Assembly (NCBI GenBank): GCA_963825525.1
Contig: CAWGTN010000003.1
Location: 96,001 to 160,000 of the forward strand
From: an uncultured Chloroflexia bacterium
GTDB taxonomy: Bacteria; Chloroflexota; Limnocylindria; QHBO01
Length of the DNA: 64,000 nucleotides
Reading direction: 5' to 3'
Position numbers and translations under genes: made by a program
The notes under the pieces: generated by a model
Database searches by the model: none
What the model was told of the DNA's origin: nothing
The model's input: the letters and a program-made list of their open reading frames with translations, nothing else
Shown here: piece after piece, positions 2,152-18,122 of the stretch
How positions within the stretch are numbered: the stretch's first letter is position 1
How the letters are laid out: every line of letters starts with the position of its first letter

Positions 2152-3797
2152 CTACTCCGGAACGCGGATCGGCTGGCTCGGCGCTGGGTCCGTCGTGGCC
2201 GCGGGCCGCCGGAAAAGCTCGAGCTCGGGGACCAGCAGGATCACGATCGCCGCTGCACCTGCGGCGCCCGCCACGGCGAGCCACATCGCAGTCGCGATGG
2301 CCTGGTGGATGGCATCCACGATCTGTCCGATGAGTGGCTCGACGGTCGGCCGCGCCGCGGCCGGGACGCTCGAGAGGATCTGCTGTCCGAGGTCCACGCC
2401 GACGCCGGTCAGGTTGGCGTCGGCAGCGGCGCCGCCGGACGCGAAGCGATCTACGATCGGCTGCGGAACGCCGCCCGCCGCCAGCTGGCGCGGGATCTCG
2501 TTGGCCAGCGAGGTACCGAAGATCGTGCCGGCCAGTGCGAGGCCGACGGATCCGCCGACCTGCCGGAAGAAGGTCAGCGCGCTGGTTGCGGTTCCGAGCA
2601 TTCGCGGTGCGACCGCGCTCTGGACCACGATCGTGAAGACGGTGAAGGACGGGCCGATGCCGAGCCCGGCGATGAACATCCAGAGCCAGACGGTGGTGAT
2701 GGGCGTATCGGATCGGATGCCCGTCATCAGGAACAGCCCCACCGTGCCGACCGCCATGGCCCCGGCCGTCAACCACTTGTAGCGCCCGGTGCGGGCCACG
2801 ATGAAGCCGGAGGCGATCGAGCTGCCGATGACGCCGGCGATGAGCGGCAGCATCTGATAGCCGGACTCGGTCGCGCTCGAGCCCAGCACGAACTGGAACC
2901 AGCGGGGGATGAAGATGACGGCGCCGAAGAATCCGAACGTGATGAGGAACGTCGCGATGATCGAGGCGGTGACGGTTCGGTTGCGGAACAGGCTGAGTGG
3001 CAGGATCGGCTCAGCGGCGCGCGATTCGATCCATACGAAGAGCCCACCGAGCAGGGCACCGATGAGCATGAGGCCGCCGACCTGCGGGTCTGCCCATTCA
3101 CCGGTCTGCTTGTTCGTCAGGCCGAGGAGGAACGGGATGAGGGCTGCCGCGAACACCGAGGCACCGAGGTAGTCGATGGACCGAACGGCTTCGGGATGAC
3201 GAACGGGCGGCAGGAGGCGCCACAGGACCGCGAGCGCCACGATGCCGACCGGGAGGTTGACGAGGAAGACCCAATGCCAGCTGATCGTGTCGGTGAGGAA
3301 GCCGCCGAGCGCGGGGCCGAGGATCGAGGCGATGGCAAAGACGGCACCGAACAGACCCTGGTACTTCCCACGCTCGCGCGGGCTGAAGAGGTCGCCGATG
3401 ACGGCGAGGGCGATCGGGAAGATGGCACCCGCGCCAGTCCCTGGATGCCACGGAAGGCGATGAGCTGGACGATCGACTGGGACAGTCCGGCAAGGAGCGA
3501 CCCGACCAGGAACAGGCTGACGCCGAACATGATCATGGGCCTGCGGCCGAACTGGTCGGAGAGCTTGCCGTAGATAGGCCCGGTCACCGTTGCGGCGAGG
3601 AGGTAGATCGTGACGACCCACACGTAGAGCTCATTGCCGGAGAGATCGGTGACGATGCGCGGCAACGCGGTCCCGACAATGGTCTGGTCGAGCGCGCTGA
3701 GGAAGATGGTGAGAAGGACGGCGCCAAGGATCTCCATCCTGGCGCGCTGGGTGACGTGAACGGGTGCCTGGTCGGGTGCGGGTGATGCGCTGGTCAT
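2152..3797 (-). CDS. DHA2 (EmrB/QacA) MFS efflux transporter; one frameshift near 3435
   Basis: ORFs 3117-3797 (LDQTIVGTALP, GKLSDQFGRR) and 2152-3621 (WHWVFLVNLPVG) join at FRGIQGL/GAGAIFP. Confidence 0.88.
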
Positions 3798-4265
3798 GCG
3801 GTTGCTTCCTCGGATGACGCTGATCGCGCGCGCCGCGGCGTTGAGATCCCTGACCGACGCGGCCAGGCGTTCCTGTTGGGTCGCGTGAGCGACTCGATGA
3901 GCCGAGCGATGCGGTCGCGCCGGCTCTGCTCCATTCTCGGATGAGCTGGCGGCCCTGCTCGGTGAGGGTGACGAACACGACGCGCCGATCGACGGTGTCG
4001 TGCGTTCGCTCGACGATGCCGCGCTCGGCGAGCCTGCCGATGATCCCGGTCGCGTTGGGGAGCGCCACGTCCAGGCGTTCGGCGATGCGACTCATCGGCA
4101 CTGCTCCTCGATCTCGAGGAGTGCGAGCACGCCGAAGCCGACCATGGAGAGGCCGTGCTCCTGGCAGCGAGCGGCCCACGCACGGCGATGCTGGGCCAGG
4201 AGCGGAACGAGCGCGTCGATGATTTCGGCCGCCCGCGATAGGGTGGCGCGCGAGGTTCGAGTCAT
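3794..4265 (-). CDS. MarR family regulator with several frameshifts
   Basis: Pieces across frames: MTRTSRATLSRAAEIIDAL..., MSRIAERLDVALPNATGIIGRLAERGIVER..DRRVVFVTLTEQG, ...SEEATA*; lies upstream of the MFS pump. Confidence 0.8.
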
Positions 4266-4338: not shown

Positions 4339-4425
4339 CGTGGACGCCGTGTGGATAGCTTCGGAATCCGACCGAAAGTTCGGGGATAAGTGGGCTTGCG
4401 CAGCGCCGGCCCGCGACCCGATACT
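4339..4425 (+). promoter_or_regulatory. DnaA-box-like array plus sigma70-type promoter (copy 1)
   Basis: CGTGGACGC 4339, TGTGGATAG 4350, CGGGGATAA 4381, TTGCGC 4396, 18-nt spacer, GATACT 4420; same layout as 17151-17236. Confidence 0.7.
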
Positions 4426-4427
4426 GA

Positions 4428-4580
4428 GGTCGTCCCGAAGGGGCAAGCGACCGGATCACAAGATTTCGATCATGAGTTCCGGCAGCGGGTTTGGAGGCTT
4501 CGGCCAAAGATCCTGACGGCAGCGGTGGCTTCGGTCACCGAGGTCGGACGCCTGTTCCTTCGGGACATTTCGCATGCCCG
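4428..4580 (+). ncRNA. Unrecognised structured ncRNA, copy 1
   Basis: 24-nt identity to copy 2 at the 5' end; four UUCG-capped hairpins; compensatory changes relative to copy 2. Confidence 0.75.
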
Positions 4581-4590
4581 CGGAGGATCG

Positions 4591-6394: not shown

Positions 6395-6516
6395 GACTAC
6401 CGTCGCGGGCACGATCCGATCGGTCGATGGTAGTCGGGCGGACGATCGGGTGTCATGCACACATTCCCACGCATTTGACGCCCACGTCATTCAATCTCTC
6501 GACGGAGTTCTTGATC

Positions 6517-6906
6517 ATGAAGCGCATCCTGTTCGTCGCGCTTGCCGGCCTCTTCACCTTCGGCGGTGTCTACGGCCTCGCGGCAAGCCTCAACCTCACC
6601 TCGGACGGGCTCGGTGCTGCGACGCAGGTCGTCGCAGGCTGCCAGGCCGGGACCCTCACTGCGACCTATACCTCGTCCTACTCGTCGTCGACTCCGGGCT
6701 ACACCGTCCCGACGGTCAACGTGACCGGCCTCGCGGCGTCGTGCTACAGCAAGGCATACCGGATCACCCTGACCGGCGCCGGCAACGCATCACTCGGGGA
6801 AGCGACCGGTACCACGCCGGCCAGCGGCACGACCTTCGCGGCGACATTCACGCCAGCGATCAGCGCGACCTCGATCACGGGCATCTCGGTCGTCATCAGC
6901 GGCTGA
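6517..6906 (+). CDS. Secreted putative fibre/pilin subunit (SipW substrate)
   Basis: Signal peptide, then AASLNLTSDGLGAA; Thr/Ser-rich beta protein with two Cys; GGAG RBS. Confidence 0.7.
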   Translation: MKRILFVALAGLFTFGGVYGLAASLNLTSDGLGAATQVVAGCQAGTLTATYTSSYSSSTPGYTVPTVNVTGLAASCYSKAYRITLTGAGNASLGEATGTTPASGTTFAATFTPAISATSITGISVVISG

Positions 6907-6976
6907 CCTCGATCCCCGGGTCGCCGTCCGAGTCATCGGCGGCGGCCCTGGGTGATCCGCAGCAAGAGACGTGCGC

Positions 6977-7349
6977 ATGAGTCCCTGGCGATCCGCCGCG
7001 ATCACCCTGCTGGCAACGATCGCCGGGGCCAGCGTTGGCGCCGCCGCGTCCCTTGCCCTCTCGGCCGGGAGCCTCGGTTTCGCAACCGCCAGCGTGCCGC
7101 AGGTGCACGAATGCGGGATTGACGGTCACGCCGATCCTCACCGTGAGCACGGTGACGAGCGTCACCGTGAGCACGTTGCCGCCGGCATGCGGAGGAGCAA
7201 CCATGGCGGTGACCGTCGATGACGGCACGACGACCGGCAGCGGCTCCGTCGTCATTCCGGGTGGCGGAGGGTCGGTGAGCGTGCCGATTACCGGGACCGC
7301 CGCCCTGCTGGCCTCGGTCCGGATCGATCTCGTGATCCTGGGACCGTGA
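6977..7349 (+). CDS. Second putative fibre subunit; frameshift near 7100
   Basis: MSPWRS...AAASLALSAGSLGFATASVP joins RCTNAGLTV...LPPACGG; paralogous pattern and Cys pair. Confidence 0.65.
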
Positions 7350-8080
7350 GCCGACCCGTCGTTCGTCATCTCTCGAGTGTCGTGGCGATCCTCACGGCCG
7401 TGGCGCTCGGTGGTTCGTGGGGCCCGGCCAACGCCGCCAGCCTGTCGTTCAGCTCGCAGCTGCTCACGCCATATCGCACCTGCGTCCTCAGCGGGACGCC
7501 GGCAACGACGACGGTCGTCGCTGATGCGGAGGTCAGGCAGGCAACCGCCGGGACCAACTATGGCACCGCGACCACGCTGGTCGTCACCTCGAGCGGGACC
7601 GCCAACCGCCGGATCTACCTGCGGTTCGACCTCGCCGCCTGCGTTCCCGCCATCCCCGTCCACGGCGACTGTCCGGCTCGCGACGCTCCGGCTGTATGCC
7701 AGCGCCCTGCCGGCCGCCTGCCGCACACTCGATGTGTTTCGCCTCACCACCGCCTGGACGGAGGCGGCGATCACCTGGACCAATCAACCGTCGGGAACGG
7801 TGCTCAACACGCCCGCCGCTTGCCACCCGCTCGGACTCATTCGATGTCGGCACTCCGGTCGGCTGCCTCAACCGAACGGCGGGGGCCTACGTCAACGGGG
7901 TGGACCTCACCGCGGACGTGGCCGGCTTCGTGTCCGGGGCGTACCACCAATCGCGGGTGGATGATCCGTGACGATGTCGAGGGCTCGGCGACGGCTCGCA
8001 CCGTCACCTTCTCGGCCAAGAACCTGGGAACGCCCGCCCAGGCTCCGCAGCTGATCGTCACCTACGTCGTGGTGCCATGA
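7346..8080 (+). CDS. Secreted DNRLRE-domain-like protein (putative tip/adhesin); internal frameshifts
   Basis: NAASLSFSSQLL; ADAEVRQA..TNYG, RIYLRFDL, ATLRLY, WTEAAITWTNQP, DLTADV, NRGWMI, PQLIVTY across three frames. Confidence 0.75.
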   Translation: MSRPVVRHLSSVVAILTAVALGGSWGPANAASLSFSSQLLTPYRTCVLSGTPATTTVVADAEVRQATAGTNYGTATTLVVTSSGTANRRIYLRFDLAACVPAIPVHGDCPARDAPAVCQRPAGRLPHTRCVSPHHRLDGGGDHLDQSTVGNGAQHARRLPPARTHSMSALRSAASTERRGPTSTGWTSPRTWPASCPGRTTNRGWMIRDDVEGSATARTVTFSAKNLGTPAQAPQLIVTYVVVP

Positions 8081-8638
8081 GCCTTCGTCCCTCGAGCATC
8101 TTCGGCACGATCGTGCTCGTCGTCCTGTTCGGTGCGTGGTTCGGCCTGTTCCGTCCCGTCAGCCTGGGCGGGCCGGCGACCTGGGTGGTCATCCGCGGGA
8201 GCTCGATGCAACCGACCTACGACACCGGCGATCTCGTGGTCATGCACGCGTCGGACGCGTACGCGTCAGGAGACGTCGTCGCGTACCGCGTTCCGGAAGG
8301 CCAGATCGGAGAGGGACACGTCGTTGTGCACCGGCTGGCAGGGGGCAACAACGGGGCGTGGGATGTCCTGGGCGACAACAACGACTCACTCGACCCGTGG
8401 CACCCGTCTAACGCACGACATCCTGGGCAAACCATGGATCACGGTCCCCGGGGCTGGACGGGTGGTGGCGTGGCTCCATCAGCCGGCGGTCCTGGCGGCT
8501 CTGGCATCGGCGATCGTCGTTTCGCTGCTCGTGGGATCGGAGACACCGCGCGCTGTTCCGGATCGCCGCCGCTCCACCATCACCTACGCCTGGTCGAAGG
8601 GGTCTAGACCTGCTCCATCGGAACAGCCGATGCGCTGA
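8077..8638 (+). CDS. sipW: ER/SipW-type signal peptidase I; frameshift near 8410
   Basis: GSSMQP, GDLVV, GDVVAY, VVHR (Ser-His dyad), GDNNDSLD, then ILGKPWITVPGAG in the next frame. Confidence 0.85.
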
Positions 8639-16134: not shown

Positions 16135-17076
16135 TCAGGCGCGGCTGGGGTCCGCGTTCGACGGGTTCGGGTGCGCGGACGACGGCTGGCGTGGGGCTCC
16201 TCGGTGCTCGACGATCCACAGGCCCACCAGCACGATGATCCCGCCCAGCAGGGTGAACGGCCCAAGCTCCTCGTCGAGCAACGCCACCGAGGACAGCACC
16301 CCGATGATCGGCACCAGGAGCGCGAACGCGCTTGCGCGTGCCGCGCCGATGCGGGCGACGCCCATGTTGAACAGGACGAACGCGGCGACCGTGCCGAAGA
16401 CCGCCAGGTAGCCGATGCCGGCGAGCGCTCCGGGCGGCGCGGCCCAGACCCTGGCCAGCCCTCCCTCCGCCAGCGCCGGGGGAACCAGGACCACGGTGCC
16501 GAGTGCCGTCCCGTACAGCGTGGTGCTGACCGCGTCGAAGCGGCCATGCGCGATCCTCGCCAGCACCGAGTACACGCCCCAGAAGGCGGCACCGGTGATG
16601 AACAGCACGTCGCCGAGCAGCCGTCGGTCGTCGGTTGCGCCGGTGGGCGTGACCACCAGCAGGAGGCCGACCGCCGCGACGCCGAGGCCGATGATCCCGC
16701 GCGTGCCGAGGCGCTCGCGCAGGAAGAGGCCGGCCAGGATCAGCGTGAAGACGGGCGCGAGTCCCGGCACGATGATCGCGCCGTCGGACGCGGGTGCCAG
16801 CGTGAGGCCGGTGAGGAAGAGCCAGTTGTAGCCGGCGACCGCCGTCAGGGCCAGGCCCAGGATCAACGGAACGTCGCGCCAGTGGATCGGCGAGAGGGGA
16901 CGGTTCGAGAGCCGGGCCCAGCCGAACAGCAGGAGGGAAGCGACGCCGAACCGAATCGCCGCGATGGTGAACGGCGGCGCGGCGTCGACGGCCACCGCGG
17001 CGGCCACCCAGGTGCCCCCGAACGCCACGGCCATGCCGATGAGCATCAGGTACGCGGTGCGGTCGGATGGTGTCAT
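16135..17076 (-). CDS. DMT/EamA transporter
   Basis: 10 TM, two EamA repeats (LRERL, LLDEEL). Confidence 0.9.
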   Translation of the reverse strand: MTPSDRTAYLMLIGMAVAFGGTWVAAAVAVDAAPPFTIAAIRFGVASLLLFGWARLSNRPLSPIHWRDVPLILGLALTAVAGYNWLFLTGLTLAPASDGAIIVPGLAPVFTLILAGLFLRERLGTRGIIGLGVAAVGLLLVVTPTGATDDRRLLGDVLFITGAAFWGVYSVLARIAHGRFDAVSTTLYGTALGTVVLVPPALAEGGLARVWAAPPGALAGIGYLAVFGTVAAFVLFNMGVARIGAARASAFALLVPIIGVLSSVALLDEELGPFTLLGGIIVLVGLWIVEHRGAPRQPSSAHPNPSNADPSRA

Positions 17077-17150
17077 GAGGCCTTCACCTTGTCATCGGGC
17101 GGCGTGTCGTTGCATCGGTCAAACGTCGCAGGGCCGCCAGCCGTGAGAAA

Positions 17151-17236
17151 CGTGGATGGGGTGTGGATAGCCCGCGCCTGACGTCATGGATTCGGGGATA
17201 AGGGGGATTGTTTCGTCAGCGGAGGGCAGAGATACT
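17151..17236 (+). promoter_or_regulatory. DnaA-box-like array plus sigma70-type promoter (copy 2)
   Basis: CGTGGATGG 17151, TGTGGATAG 17162, CGGGGATAA 17193, TTGTTT 17208, 17-nt spacer, GATACT 17231. Confidence 0.7.
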
Positions 17237-17238
17237 TT

Positions 17239-17361
17239 GGTCGTCCCGAAGGGGCAAGCGACACCGGATCACACGGCTTCGGTCATGGGTTTCGGTGCCG
17301 GCAACGGAGGCTTCGGCCGCCGAGGTCGGGCGCCTGTTCCTCCGGGGCATTTTCGTGCCCG
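17239..17361 (+). ncRNA. Unrecognised structured ncRNA, copy 2
   Basis: Homologous to 4428-4580; UUCG/UCCG hairpins; opposite strand to both neighbouring genes. Confidence 0.75.
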
Positions 17362-17362
17362 G

Positions 17363-17920
17363 TCAGCCAACCTCGACCCGCACCGCCTCGATCTCGTCGT
17401 CCGACGCAAGGCGATGCACCGCGCTCAGGCCCCCCGAATCGAGCGATCGGAGGCTGTCGCTCAGCATGCGATGCTGGCGTCGCAGGGCCGCCGGCGGCGG
17501 ACGTGGTGCCGCTCGGGTGGCATTCCGCTCCAGGGCGGTCGCCAGCGACACGTCAAGGACGATCCCGACCACAGGACGGCGGTGCCGCCGCGCGATGGCG
17601 ATCAGCTGCTCGCGCGCCCACGCCTCCACGTTCGTTGCGTCGACCACGGTCAGACGTCCGCGACGCAACCGCATGGCGAGCAACCGGTGCAGCAGGTCGA
17701 ACGCGTCGTCCGTCGCCTCCTGGGCCGTCGGGTCGTCGGTGATCATGGCCCGCAGGTTGTCCGATGACAGAACCTGGCTCGTGCGGAAATGGCGAGTGGC
17801 GAACGTGGTCTTGCCACTCGCCGAAATGCCGATGAGGATCACGAGCGCATCGGCAGGCAGTGCGATGAGCCGAGAAACAGACCGGCCGCCGTTGGTGTCG
17901 GCGGCCGGTGGCGTGGTCAT
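17363..17920 (-). CDS. Stand-alone polynucleotide-kinase-like P-loop protein (AAA_33-like)
   Basis: LVILIGISASGKTTFA, LSSDNLR, TVVDATN, ALERNATR, as in the Pnkp kinase module. Confidence 0.85.
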   Translation of the reverse strand: MTTPPAADTNGGRSVSRLIALPADALVILIGISASGKTTFATRHFRTSQVLSSDNLRAMITDDPTAQEATDDAFDLLHRLLAMRLRRGRLTVVDATNVEAWAREQLIAIARRHRRPVVGIVLDVSLATALERNATRAAPRPPPAALRRQHRMLSDSLRSLDSGGLSAVHRLASDDEIEAVRVEVG

Positions 17921-17930
17921 GAGTCCCGTG

Positions 17931-18122
17931 TCAGCCGTGGGCGTCGCAGTCCGGGCACATCTCGGAGTCGGGAATCGGCGCCTTGGGCTGGCCGATGGCA
18001 CGCGGCAGCGCGCGGCCGCAGATGGTCGAACCGGGCTCGCCGACGAGGTGAACCTTGCTGAAGTGGCGATCGGGCAGCCGCCACGTCACGTAGCGACGCT
18101 GGCGCGTGGGGGTCGAGGACAC
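17931..18122 (-). CDS. 63-aa putative zinc-finger micro-protein
   Basis: GGAG 9 nt before GTG; KVHLV...TICGR...MCPDC; stop 10 nt before the kinase ATG. Confidence 0.55.
   Translation of the reverse strand: MSSTPTRQRRYVTWRLPDRHFSKVHLVGEPGSTICGRALPRAIGQPKAPIPDSEMCPDCDAHG

What the first reader, a model, noticed from the sequence alone, without database searches (positions are those of the whole stretch)
17239..17361. Copy 2 context points to a stand-alone RNA gene, not a riboswitch
Seen: copy 2 is on the plus strand between two minus-strand genes. It is divergent from the DMT gene and ends 2 nt from the stop of the kinase gene, so it has no downstream ORF to regulate in cis. The neighbours of the two copies are unrelated. 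Copy 2 lacks the extra hairpin and adds a closing helix, GGGCGC/GTGCCC. Inference: an independently transcribed, trans-acting RNA. Its adjacency to a stand-alone polynucleotide-kinase-like gene may be coincidence or an RNA end-processing link.
Basis: partly seen in the sequence, partly recalled or inferred. Interest (0 to 1): 0.75.

Follow-up and report, generated by a model that had tools for sequence, protein, structure and literature searches.

The report
Stand-alone small RNA gene family
Copy 2 is a real, structured small RNA gene with its own promoter, one of at least five related copies in an uncultured soil Chloroflexota genome, and each copy sits behind sequence boxes that look like binding sites for the replication initiator DnaA.

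Summary
Window 17239-17361 (+) lies between the divergent EamA/DMT gene and the stop codon of a convergent stand-alone Pnkp-type kinase gene. It lacks the 31-nt hairpin of copy 1.

It is a structured RNA. In 31 homologues from other genera and metagenomes, 96.9% of pair cells pair, against 37-50% in slid controls, and 9 pairs show compensatory changes. G·U outnumbers A·C 113 to 4, which fixes the + strand.

No Rfam family matches. A model built here finds the RNA in 50 of 50 sampled genomes of the same Limnocylindria family. It finds nothing credible in the other families of the class.

The own genome holds five loci: two long and three of about 80 nt. All share helix P1, hairpin P2, a -35/-10 promoter and phased GTGGA-N-AA boxes. 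That box motif is densest at dnaA-dnaN.

Downstream neighbours are unrelated and often convergent (kinase, upp), so a riboswitch is unlikely.

The RNA-kinase adjacency is conserved in 38 of 42 genomes. Each partner also occurs without the other.

No expression data could be obtained, so trans action and DnaA control are inferred.

The parts
17151..17158 (+). Box 1, CGTGGATG (about -92 to -85 from the predicted start); weak DnaA-box-like site
   Evidence: Aligned with CGTGGACG of copy 1. A G[GT]GGANA match at this position occurs in 17 of 49 metagenome loci.
17162..17170 (+). Box 2, TGTGGATAG (about -81 to -73); reverse complement CTATCCACA, 8 of 9 to the recalled DnaA-box consensus TTATCCACA
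   Evidence: Identical in copy 1. Present at a fixed position in 49 of 49 metagenome loci and across genera. TATCCACA occurs only 11 times in the genome, and 4 of those lie upstream of this RNA family.
17194..17202 (+). Box 3, GGGGATAAG (about -49 to -41), just upstream of the -35 element
   Evidence: TCGGGGATAA is nearly invariant across 20 loci from 13 genera and present in 49 of 49 metagenome loci. It lies 31 nt from box 2.
17208..17213 (+). -35-like hexamer TTGTTT
   Evidence: TTG is conserved in all aligned homologues, 17 nt upstream of the -10 element. The generic consensus scan did not call it.
17231..17236 (+). -10-like hexamer GATACT (TATNCT in other genera)
   Evidence: Conserved column block. 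It places the start about 7 nt downstream, at G17243.
17243..17353 (+). Predicted transcript (about 111 nt), a three-way junction. P1 is 17243-17260 with 17331-17348, P2 is 17264-17295, P4 is 17298-17329. The ends are inferred, not measured.
   Evidence: Fold. Pair counts: 94.5% of cells paired against 29-51% slid, with 12 compensatory pairs. Independent set: 96.9% against 37-50%, with 9 compensatory pairs. G·U to A·C is 156:13 and 113:4. CM score 124.9 bits.
17335..17353 (+). Terminator-like hairpin (the 3' strand of P1 folded on itself, 17335-17349) followed by TTTT (17350-17353)
   Evidence: It is the only terminator-like site in 17000-17600 (1 found, 0.2 expected). A short U run after P1 is conserved in homologues.
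17354..17361 (+).
   Evidence: Present in copy 1, the short paralogues and other homologues. Neither candidate partner covaries with it.
17363..18001 (-). Stand-alone polynucleotide-kinase-like gene (Pnkp kinase domain only), convergent with the RNA
   Evidence: AAA_33 E 6e-29. TIGR04075 profile positions 3-167 of 851, 169 bits, far below the 750-bit cut-off. Convergent neighbour of the RNA in 38 of 42 family genomes that have it.
16135..17076 (-). EamA/DMT transporter gene, divergent from the RNA
   Evidence: PF00892 E 2e-43. It is the upstream neighbour only in some genomes.
4339..4425 (+). Copy 1 promoter region: box 1 4339-4346, box 2 4350-4358, box 3 4382-4390, -35 4396-4401, -10 4420-4425
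   Evidence: Alignment with copy 2 and with genus homologues.
4432..4570 (+). Copy 1 RNA (long form with the extra hairpin P3). The hydrolase SD (4582-4587) and ATG (4591) follow within about 20 nt.
   Evidence: CM score 149.4 bits. Fold z-score -4.0. Sequence. The RNA-then-hydrolase arrangement recurs in the genus.

Best explanation
Copy 2 is an independently transcribed, structured small RNA gene of about 111 nt. It belongs to a previously uncurated multi-copy ('sibling') RNA family confined, in the genomes sampled, to one family of Candidatus Limnocylindria (Chloroflexota).

Each member is a self-contained module:
- three phased GTGGA-N-AA boxes, centred near -88, -77 and -45;
- a sigma-70-type -35/-10 promoter;
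- a transcript whose first base opens an 18-bp closing helix (P1), formed with the 3' end;
- a sequence-invariant hairpin (P2);
- zero, one or two variable UUCG-capped hairpins (P3, P4);
- a short U run after P1.

Shown here: the structure, the strand, the conservation, the promoter architecture and independence from any downstream gene class.

Inferred: that it acts in trans (as a regulatory or protein-binding RNA) through the invariant P1/P2 core; that the boxes are DnaA boxes, so that transcription follows DnaA occupancy; and that weak termination lets some copies (for example copy 1) also feed transcription into the next gene.
For: Real and repeated. Copy 1 and copy 2 align at 79%. The CM finds 5 loci in the own genome: 149, 125, 40, 39 and 28 bits.

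Structure.
- A2, 28 genus sequences: 94.5% of cells paired against 29-51% slid; 12 pairs changed on both sides against 3.6 in shuffles (0 of 500 shuffles reach this).
- A6, 31 sequences from other genera and metagenomes, a MAFFT alignment not fitted to the model: 96.9% against 37-50%; 9 pairs against 4.6 (0 of 500); 7 of 11 pairs of P4 covary.

Strand. G·U cells outnumber A·C cells 113 to 4 and 156 to 13. Pairing would fall to 87% and 83% on the other strand.

Distribution. 50 of 50 genomes of the own family (13 genera) have a match. The other families have 0 of 49, 2 of 44 (marginal, E 0.005-0.01), 0 of 6 and 0 of 1. At least 120 metagenome contigs carry the exact 18-mer.

Promoter and boxes. 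They are conserved across genera. In 49 metagenome loci, G[GT]GGANA sits at -46/-45 in 49 of 49, at -77/-76 in 49 of 49 and at -88/-87 in 17 of 49. The mean is 2.35 per 105 nt against 0.08 in shuffles.

Box identity. The dnaA-dnaN spacer is the densest GTGGA[TC]A cluster of the genome: 4 in 290 bp against 0.05 expected per 450 bp. Similar arrays lie in the same spacer in three other genera.

Not a leader of one gene class.
- The convergent kinase follows in 38 of 42 genomes.
- Short type B is followed by convergent upp in 12 of 20 fetched loci.
- In the metagenome loci, by a crude ORF heuristic, long forms have 15 convergent, 13 same-strand, 6 no gene within 300 nt and 3 too short to judge. 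Short forms have 10 convergent, 0 same-strand, 1 none and 3 too short.

No Rfam family matches at gathering score, and nothing sensible appears at E<=10.
Against: There is no transcript evidence.

The generic promoter scan did not call the promoter (0 found).

Copy 2 alone folds only modestly better than shuffles (z -1.6, with 14 of 200 shuffles as good).

P1 and P2 hardly vary, so they carry almost no covariation. Their invariance could reflect a DNA-level constraint, since both P1 strands are near-palindromes.

Four of the five loci in this genome are followed within 20-60 nt by a same-strand gene or tRNA. In six other-genus loci an arrestin_N-like gene starts about 25 nt after the RNA. That pattern is what a 5' leader looks like.

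No target or partner was found. Loop complements hit only the loci themselves. Duplex energies with rRNA and tRNAs lie within the range of shuffles in 6 of 8 tests; in the other two they only just pass the lowest of 30 shuffles.

DnaA binding is not tested. Box 3 (TTATCCCC on the other strand) departs from the consensus at two positions.
Confidence: 0.68

Rival explanations
1. It is a cis-acting 5' leader or riboswitch-like element. The promoter and structured RNA control the gene that follows through termination at the P1/U run, or through an anti-SD (UCCUUC in the 3' strand of P1) that could pair with the downstream SD. Copy 2 would then be a relic whose gene was lost.
For: In copy 1 the U run ends at about 4570 and the hydrolase SD (4582-4587) and ATG (4591) follow, leaving no room for another promoter. 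RNA-then-hydrolase recurs in 11 or more genus loci. Short paralogues in this genome lie 27 nt and about 46 nt upstream of same-strand ORFs and 60 nt upstream of tRNA-Pro. An arrestin_N-like gene starts about 25 nt after the RNA in L058, L063, L064, L066, L070 and L071. The two halves of P1 can each fold alone, giving alternative structures (sequence).
Against: The downstream genes are functionally unrelated: hydrolase, arrestin-like protein, membrane protein, secreted protein, tRNA. Many members have only a convergent gene downstream. Copy-2-type loci without any downstream gene keep the full sequence and structure across the genus. The proposed alternative 3' helices show no covariation.
Confidence: 0.15
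2. It is chiefly a DNA-level element. The phased boxes and the two near-palindromes (GTCCCGAAGGGGC and GTTCCTTCGGGAC) are protein-binding sites, for example a DnaA-titrating or DnaA-reactivating locus or an operator pair. The transcript would be a by-product.
For: The boxes sit at fixed 11- and 31-nt spacing in 49 of 49 loci. The same motif is concentrated in the dnaA-dnaN spacer. P1 is invariant in sequence on both strands, with no covariation (12 of 17 and 9 of 16 pairs never vary). Both P1 strands are imperfect palindromes (sequence).
Against: P4 and the base of P2 show compensatory changes that matter only for RNA. There is a strong G·U over A·C asymmetry, including two invariant G·U pairs inside P1. 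A conserved -35/-10 is placed so that transcription starts exactly at P1.
Confidence: 0.1
3. It is functionally tied to the neighbouring kinase. It could be a substrate, guide or scaffold of an RNA-repair or end-processing system (Y-RNA-like), or an antisense or terminator element for the convergent kinase mRNA.
For: The RNA and the kinase are convergent neighbours in 38 of 42 family genomes that have the kinase, with gaps of 0-300 nt, or about 915-990 nt (1455 nt in one genome) where other DNA, the arrestin-like gene in the loci inspected, intervenes. In genus g19 the model's end lies 0-15 nt from the kinase stop in 8 of 9 genomes (61 nt in the ninth). The kinase matches the Pnkp kinase domain.
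Against: The RNA is found with no kinase detected (E<=1e-20) in genera g18, g20 and g25: 0 of 6 genomes, each 91-96% complete. The kinase occurs in 27 of 44 genomes of family f3, where no RNA is found, including none at 12 kinase loci (11 from f3, 1 from f2) searched with filters off (best 13 bits). Four of the five paralogues in this genome are nowhere near the kinase. No TROVE/Rsr and no RtcB was found in this genome, which is 92% complete. There is no Y_RNA or YrlA match in Rfam. There is no U run on the minus strand to make a bidirectional terminator (sequence). pfk stays linked as well, which suggests ordinary synteny.
Confidence: 0.07

Closest known systems
Sibling sRNA families driven by one regulator, such as the CiaR-dependent csRNAs of Streptococcus, the LuxO/sigma-54 Qrr sRNAs of Vibrio and the LisR-dependent LhrC sRNAs of Listeria (recalled from general knowledge; not tested in any call)
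   Same: There are several paralogous short RNA genes per genome. Each has its own promoter preceded by the same conserved protein-binding boxes. They share a conserved core and have variable parts, and they lie in unrelated intergenic regions.
   Different: There is no sequence or Rfam relation. The putative regulator is DnaA-like rather than a two-component response regulator. The conserved core is a long 5'/3' closing helix plus a hairpin, rather than an obvious single-stranded seed. Expression and targets are unknown.
DnaA-box clusters and DnaA-regulated promoters, such as the dnaA autoregulatory promoter, the DnaA-box clusters of Bacillus subtilis, and datA/DARS of E. coli (recalled; the listing shows that such work exists, but I read only titles and abstract openings)
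   Same: Arrays of two or three 9-mers close to TTATCCACA, in one orientation and helically phased, lie just upstream of a promoter. The same motif marks the dnaA-dnaN spacer of this genome.
   Different: Here the boxes precede non-coding RNA genes, and the arrangement is repeated at five loci. The listing of my one search on DnaA boxes and small RNAs showed no DnaA-box-driven sRNA family (titles and abstract openings only). Binding is not tested.
Bacterial Y RNAs (YrlA) of the Rsr/RtcB RNA-repair loci (recalled)
   Same: It is a small RNA whose 5' and 3' ends form a long closing stem with branched modules. It lies next to a gene of RNA or DNA end-healing chemistry.
   Different: There is no Rfam match, no Rsr/TROVE and no RtcB gene in the genome. 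I saw no tRNA-like module. The neighbour is a kinase domain only, and the link is not obligatory.
Riboswitches and structured 5' leaders
   Same: It is a structured, conserved element that at some loci lies directly upstream of a same-strand gene, with possible alternative folds.
   Different: The downstream genes are unrelated or absent, and many loci face a convergent gene. It has its own terminator-like end.

Membership tests
Any curated RNA family (Rfam 15) | Match to a covariance model at the family's gathering score | tested here: not met
   There were 0 matches in the whole 64-kb window at gathering score. At E<=10 there were only chance hits to mir-4523, P26 and MEG3_2, far below their cut-offs. 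The short paralogue loci gave only a neighbouring tRNA.
Riboswitch / cis-regulatory leader | Consistently located 5' of same-strand genes of one functional class | tested here: not met
   Downstream neighbours include a convergent kinase (38 of 42 genomes), convergent upp (12 of 20 loci), a hydrolase, an arrestin-like gene, a membrane protein and tRNA-Pro. In metagenome loci, long forms are 15 convergent and 13 same-strand; short forms are 10 convergent and 0 same-strand (crude heuristic).
Riboswitch / cis-regulatory leader | Conserved alternative (expression-platform) pairing | tested here: inconclusive
   Two candidate 3' helices pair in 81-83% of cells but show no covariation (149 of 500 and 492 of 500 shuffles reach the observed values).
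Riboswitch / cis-regulatory leader | Specific ligand binding | not testable with these tools
   This needs in-line probing or ITC.
Independently transcribed bacterial sRNA gene | Own promoter conserved with the RNA | tested here: met
   A -35 TTG, a 17-nt spacer and a -10 TATNCT/GATACT are conserved in 28 genus loci, 20 family loci and 49 metagenome loci, at a fixed distance from P1. This is a sequence prediction only. The generic scan did not call it.
Independently transcribed bacterial sRNA gene | Conserved secondary structure with covariation, on a defined strand | tested here: met
   (0 of 500 shuffles reach the observed values; slid controls 29-51%). (G·U to A·C 113:4 and 156:13).
Independently transcribed bacterial sRNA gene | Own terminator or defined 3' end | tested here: inconclusive
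   There is a terminator-like hairpin and TTTT at 17335-17353. The U run is short (2-4 U) in homologues. No 3'-end data exist.
Independently transcribed bacterial sRNA gene | Detected as a discrete transcript; acts on targets in trans | not testable with these tools
The crude complementarity searches were negative.
DnaA-box array / DnaA-controlled promoter | 9-mers close to the DnaA-box consensus (TTATCCACA, recalled) | tested here: met
   For copy 2, box 2 is CTATCCACA on the other strand (8 of 9) and box 3 is CTTATCCCC. Short paralogues carry exact TTATCCACA.
DnaA-box array / DnaA-controlled promoter | The same motif is concentrated at the replication origin of the same organism | tested here: met
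   The dnaA-dnaN spacer (G000 C2:1521258-1521547) is the top GTGGA[TC]A cluster of the genome. GTGGA-N-AA/TCCAC arrays lie in the same spacer in G063, G061 and G119. That this spacer is oriC is inferred from textbook gene order.
DnaA-box array / DnaA-controlled promoter | DnaA binds and changes transcription | not testable with these tools
   This needs EMSA, ChIP or reporter assays.
Y RNA / YrlA | Ro/Rsr (TROVE) partner gene present, usually adjacent; Rfam model match | tested here: not met
   PF05731 gave 0 matches and PF01139 (RtcB) gave 0 matches in the own genome, which is 91.8% complete. There is no Rfam hit.
Bacterial Pnkp (for the neighbouring gene) | Kinase, phosphatase and ligase-like adenylyltransferase domains in one protein of about 850 aa | tested here: not met
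   The protein is 212 aa. It matches only profile positions 3-167 of 851, at 169 bits against a 750-bit cut-off. It is a stand-alone kinase-domain homologue.

The most novel reading that the evidence does not exclude
A family of sibling small RNAs is transcribed from promoters gated by phased DnaA boxes. The replication initiator would then directly set the level of a conserved regulatory or protein-binding RNA in Limnocylindria. In the reverse reading, these five transcribed box arrays act as DnaA-titrating or DnaA-reactivating loci. Either way this would link replication-initiation status to post-transcriptional control, and possibly, through convergent read-through, to nucleotide-salvage and DNA-end-processing genes (upp, Pnk-like kinase).
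Probability: 0.3. Interest if true: 0.8.

Novelty: new member of a known kind. Interest (0 to 1): 0.58.

Why it matters
Limnocylindria (formerly Ellin6529) are abundant and uncultured, mostly in soil. No paper in the library searched pairs the class name with 'small RNA'.

This RNA is conserved in every sampled genome of one family. It is present in several copies per genome and in at least 120 metagenome contigs. It is therefore probably a core regulatory or structural RNA of that lineage, and it is a ready candidate for a new Rfam family.

If the boxes are DnaA boxes, this would be a clean natural case of non-coding RNA genes in a DnaA regulon. It could be tested with a few promoter fusions and gel shifts.

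There is also a practical point. The near-identical copies explain contig breaks at this element in many MAG assemblies.

Tried and rejected
- Rfam at gathering and at permissive thresholds on the window, both copies and the short paralogue loci gave no family.
- rRNA or stable-RNA leader idea. It was prompted by hits at contig ends and by the tRNA-Pro downstream of one paralogue. The single rRNA operon (C1:130640) has a different promoter, without boxes and without the element. Only 1 of 23 short loci examined has a tRNA downstream. The contig breaks are explained by the repeated copies.
- Coding reading. The ATG inside P2 is not conserved, and the P3 insertion is 31 nt, not a multiple of three. 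I rejected it by inspection; no formal coding test was run.
Neither shows covariation.
- Diverged RNA next to the kinase in other families. Twelve loci searched with filters off gave a best hit of 13 bits, E 0.019.
- Y-RNA system. There is no TROVE and no RtcB gene.
- Targets.
  - Reverse complements of the P2 loops, with up to 2-4 mismatches, hit essentially only the RNA loci themselves.
  - Duplex energies of the P1 and P2 segments with the rRNA operon and with 53 tRNA/tmRNA sequences lie within the range of 30 shuffles in 6 of 8 tests. The other two only just pass the lowest shuffle.
- Literature. I saw only listings and abstract openings, and nothing on this RNA. No paper was read in full, and supplements are closed.
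- My first orientation of the short loci by motif was wrong for many of them, because P1 is near-palindromic. I redid it using the CM strands.
Full report
**Observation.** The stretch 17239-17361 is as described. It lies on the + strand between the EamA/DMT gene 16135-17076 (-) and a 212-aa ORF 17363-18001 (-). The stop codon of that ORF starts 2 nt after 17361. The ORF is a stand-alone homologue of the kinase domain of bacterial Pnkp: TIGR04075 profile positions 3-167 of 851, E 1.2e-49, 169 bits against a 750-bit cut-off, and AAA_33.

Copy 1 (about 4427-4576) and copy 2 align at 79% over 280 columns. The alignment includes about 90 nt upstream. Copy 2 has a single 31-column gap, which removes one hairpin. 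The flanking genes of the two copies are unrelated.

**Taxon.** Close relatives of the kinase carry record titles of Candidatus Limnocylindria / Limnocylindrales MAGs (Chloroflexota). The genome is 2.58 Mb in 4 contigs and 91.8% complete.

**It is a structured RNA on the + strand.**
- I aligned 28 genus homologues (A2) and wrote a structure: P1 (an 18-bp closing helix of the 5' and 3' ends), P2, an optional P3, and P4.
- On A2, 94.5% of 1215 pair cells are standard pairs, against 29-51% when partners are slid. Twelve pairs change on both sides, against 3.6 in shuffles, and 0 of 500 shuffles reach this.
- A second MAFFT alignment, not fitted to the model, holds 31 sequences from other genera and metagenomes (A6). 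It gives 96.9% against 37-50%, 9 compensatory pairs against 4.6 (0 of 500), and 7 of 11 pairs of P4 covarying.
- P1 and P2 are almost invariant in sequence, so they contribute little covariation.
- G·U cells outnumber A·C cells 113 to 4 (A6) and 156 to 13 (A2). The same pairs read on the other strand would pair in only 87% and 83% of cells.
- Copy 2 alone folds only modestly better than shuffles (z -1.6), and copy 1 clearly better (z -4.0).

**It is not a curated family.** Rfam 15 gives nothing at gathering score in the window, and only chance hits at E<=10.

**Distribution.**
- BLAST finds the element in 32 of 36 other genomes of the genus. There are usually two copies on one strand, 7-27 kb apart. 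It finds none in 24 genomes of other genera.
- The covariance model R1 matches 50 of 50 sampled genomes of the same family (13 genera). In the other families of the class it matches 0 of 49, 2 of 44 (marginal, E 0.005-0.01), 0 of 6 and 0 of 1.
- Several MAG contigs end inside or beside the element. The repeated copies explain this. The genome's one rRNA operon has a different promoter and no such element.

**There are five loci, not two.** In the own genome R1 also finds three loci of about 80 nt: C2:1064688-1064766 (-), C2:1752442-1752524 (+) and C2:947010-947087 (+). They keep P1, a P2-like hairpin with the loop GAGAU(U/C)(G/A)CAUCAA, the tail and the upstream boxes. They lack P3 and P4. Similar short hits occur in most genomes of the family.

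**Promoter module.**
- Across 28 genus, 20 family and 49 metagenome loci, the upstream 100 nt keeps the same layout: box 1 (TGGGGAW / CGTGGAYG), box 2 (YGTGGAHAAG), about 21 variable bases, box 3 (TCGGGGATAA), a -35 TTGY, 17 nt, and a -10 TATNCT or GATACT.
- P1 starts 7 nt after the -10 element.
- In the 49 metagenome loci, G[GT]GGANA occurs at -46/-45 in 49 of 49, at -77/-76 in 49 of 49 and at -88/-87 in 17 of 49. These positions are relative to model position 1. The mean is 2.35 per 105 nt against 0.08 in shuffles.
- The spacings of 31 and 11 nt put the boxes on one face of the helix.
- The generic sigma-70 scan did not call this promoter.
- A terminator-like hairpin followed by TTTT (17335-17353) is the only such site in 17000-17600.

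**The boxes look like DnaA boxes (inference).**
- Box 2 reads CTATCCACA on the other strand, and the short paralogues carry exact TTATCCACA. The consensus itself is recalled, not taken from a call.
- TATCCACA occurs 11 times in the genome, and 4 of those lie upstream of this RNA family.
- dnaA is at C2:~1520182. The dnaA-dnaN spacer is the densest GTGGA[TC]A cluster of the genome: 4 in 290 bp, against 300 hits genome-wide, or 0.05 per 450 bp.
- The same spacer in G063, G061 and G119 (three other genera) also carries GTGGA-N-AA/TCCAC arrays.
- Similar boxes precede what I read as the ftsZ and parA genes, and a tRNA-Met gene.
- DnaA binding itself is untested.

**Context survey.**
- *Copy-2 type.* Comparing, the RNA and the kinase are convergent neighbours on one contig in 38 of the 42 family genomes with a kinase match. 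Without the unpublished G125 and G151 the count is 36 of 40. Gaps are 0-300 nt, or about 915-990 nt (1455 nt in one genome). The four misses have the two genes on different contigs, or only a short hit listed.
- Where the gap is about 1 kb, a + strand arrestin_N-like gene (PF00339, E 3.5e-9) starts about 25 nt after the RNA. This is seen in L058, L063, L064, L066, L070 and L071. That gene is absent at copy 2 and in the rest of the genus, yet the RNA is fully conserved there.
- *Copy-1 type.* MFS, MarR, RNA, then hydrolase recurs in the genus. In copy 1 the U run (4568-4570) is followed by the SD (4582-4587) and the ATG (4591). The hydrolase is therefore probably fed by read-through.
- *Short type B.* It is followed by a convergent upp-like gene, with its stop 8-31 nt away, in 12 of 20 fetched loci. 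Type A is followed by other convergent genes in L134, L135, L140 and L141. Only this genome has tRNA-Pro 60 nt downstream.
- *Metagenome loci.* By a crude GC3-based ORF heuristic, with ORFs that overlap the RNA left ambiguous, long forms have 15 convergent, 13 same-strand, 6 no gene within 300 nt and 3 too short to judge. Short forms have 10 convergent, 0 same-strand, 1 none and 3 too short.
- Homologues are therefore not always 5' of a same-strand gene class.

**Kinase link.**
- The kinase is found (E<=1e-20) in 41 of 50 sampled genomes of the family. It is not found in genera g18, g20 and g25 (0 of 6 genomes, each 91-96% complete), and all of those have the RNA.
- It is present in 27 of 44 genomes of family f3, which lack the RNA. 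Twelve kinase loci from the other families (11 from f3, 1 from f2), searched with filters off, give a best hit of 13 bits.
- pfk stays linked to the locus as well.
- No TROVE/Rsr or RtcB gene was found.
- I read the adjacency as conserved synteny with at most a facultative functional tie.

GGGCGC (17328-17333) and GTGCCC (17355-17360) can pair. Across A2 that helix pairs in 82.7% of cells but has no covariation: 149 of 500 shuffles do as well. The same tail exists in copy 1 and in all paralogues. The helix would also displace three pairs of P1. An alternative 3' hairpin fares no better.

**Mechanism.**
- *Shown:* a conserved, strand-specific, structured RNA module with its own promoter-like region, kept regardless of what follows it.
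- *Inferred:* it is made as a discrete RNA whose paired 5' and 3' ends (P1) stabilise it. The invariant P1/P2 core is what partners recognise, while P3 and P4 are structural decoration. Transcription depends on a protein that binds the phased boxes, most likely DnaA. The weak terminator lets some copies drive the next gene.
- I found no target.

**Limits.**
- From the literature I saw only listings and abstract openings. No paper was read, and supplements are closed.
- Gene calls outside the Pfam-tested proteins rest on my own GC3 and ORF heuristic. The names ftsZ, parA, upp, serA, mdh and SRAP come from reading translations, not from a family search.

**Unpublished genomes.**
- The tallies include G006, G034, G116, G125 and G151.
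- Rows L023 (G034) and L029 (G006) are in A2 and in model R1.
- L057 (G125) is in A5 and A6 and.
- L050 (G151) and L068 (G116) appear, L068 also, and L134 (G125).
- Leaving them out does not change any conclusion. For example, the family tally becomes 47 of 47.

Noticed in passing
G000 C1:266066-266130, C2:1487357-1487365 and C1:233231-233300 (own genome, outside the window): The same GTGGATAA/TTGTCCACA boxes lie about 27-29 nt upstream of -10-like hexamers in front of genes whose translations read like FtsZ and ParA, and in front of tRNA-Met. This suggests a wider box-controlled (DnaA?) regulon. Next to the parA box is TTCACGTGAAAC, which resembles a parS half-site (recalled).
   Followed up: partly
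window 3631-4265 (-): The MarR-like gene upstream of copy 1 appears split between two frames: the N-terminal part in ORF 4092-4265 and the winged-helix part in ORF 3631-4179 (PF01047 residues 23-68). This could be a frameshift, a pseudogene or an assembly error.
   Followed up: no
L060, L061 and L062 (other genera), just upstream of the kinase on its strand: In several other genera the kinase gene overlaps the end of a gene that begins MCGRFAQPRS..., which reads like an SRAP/YedK-type abasic-site peptidase (recalled, not Pfam-tested). This would point to DNA repair rather than RNA repair for the kinase.
   Followed up: no
L058, L063, L064, L066, L070 and L071, 20-30 nt after the RNA: An arrestin_N-like (Spo0M-like) gene of about 300 aa lies between the RNA and the kinase in some genera and is absent in the window's genus. 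It may be the ancestral downstream gene of the module.
   Followed up: partly
window 6427-8607 (+): A block with lower third-position GC holds a small secreted protein (MKRILFVALAGLF...), further secreted proteins and a signal-peptidase-I-like ORF (...IRGSSMQPTYDTGDLV...). It reads like a SipW/TasA-type cluster. This was not tested with Pfam.
   Followed up: no
G000 C2:839385-839481, C2:1128563-1128654, C2:1869475-1869570, C1:66846-66935 and C3:81726-81825: ARAGORN lists a tRNA with a four-base anticodon (cgag) and several unusually long tRNAs (90-100 nt), some duplicating anticodons. These could be introns, pseudo-tRNAs or false calls.
   Followed up: no
all RNA loci, minus strand: The model also scores the reverse strand at 20-44 bits, because both strands of P1 are near-palindromes and the hairpins are symmetric. 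Orientation by motif alone misleads, as it did for me.
   Followed up: yes
G096 C2:255006-257663 and G063 C2:1307946-1312261: Two long-form copies 2.5-4 kb apart also occur in other genera. Local duplication of the module is therefore recurrent, not peculiar to the window's genus.
   Followed up: no
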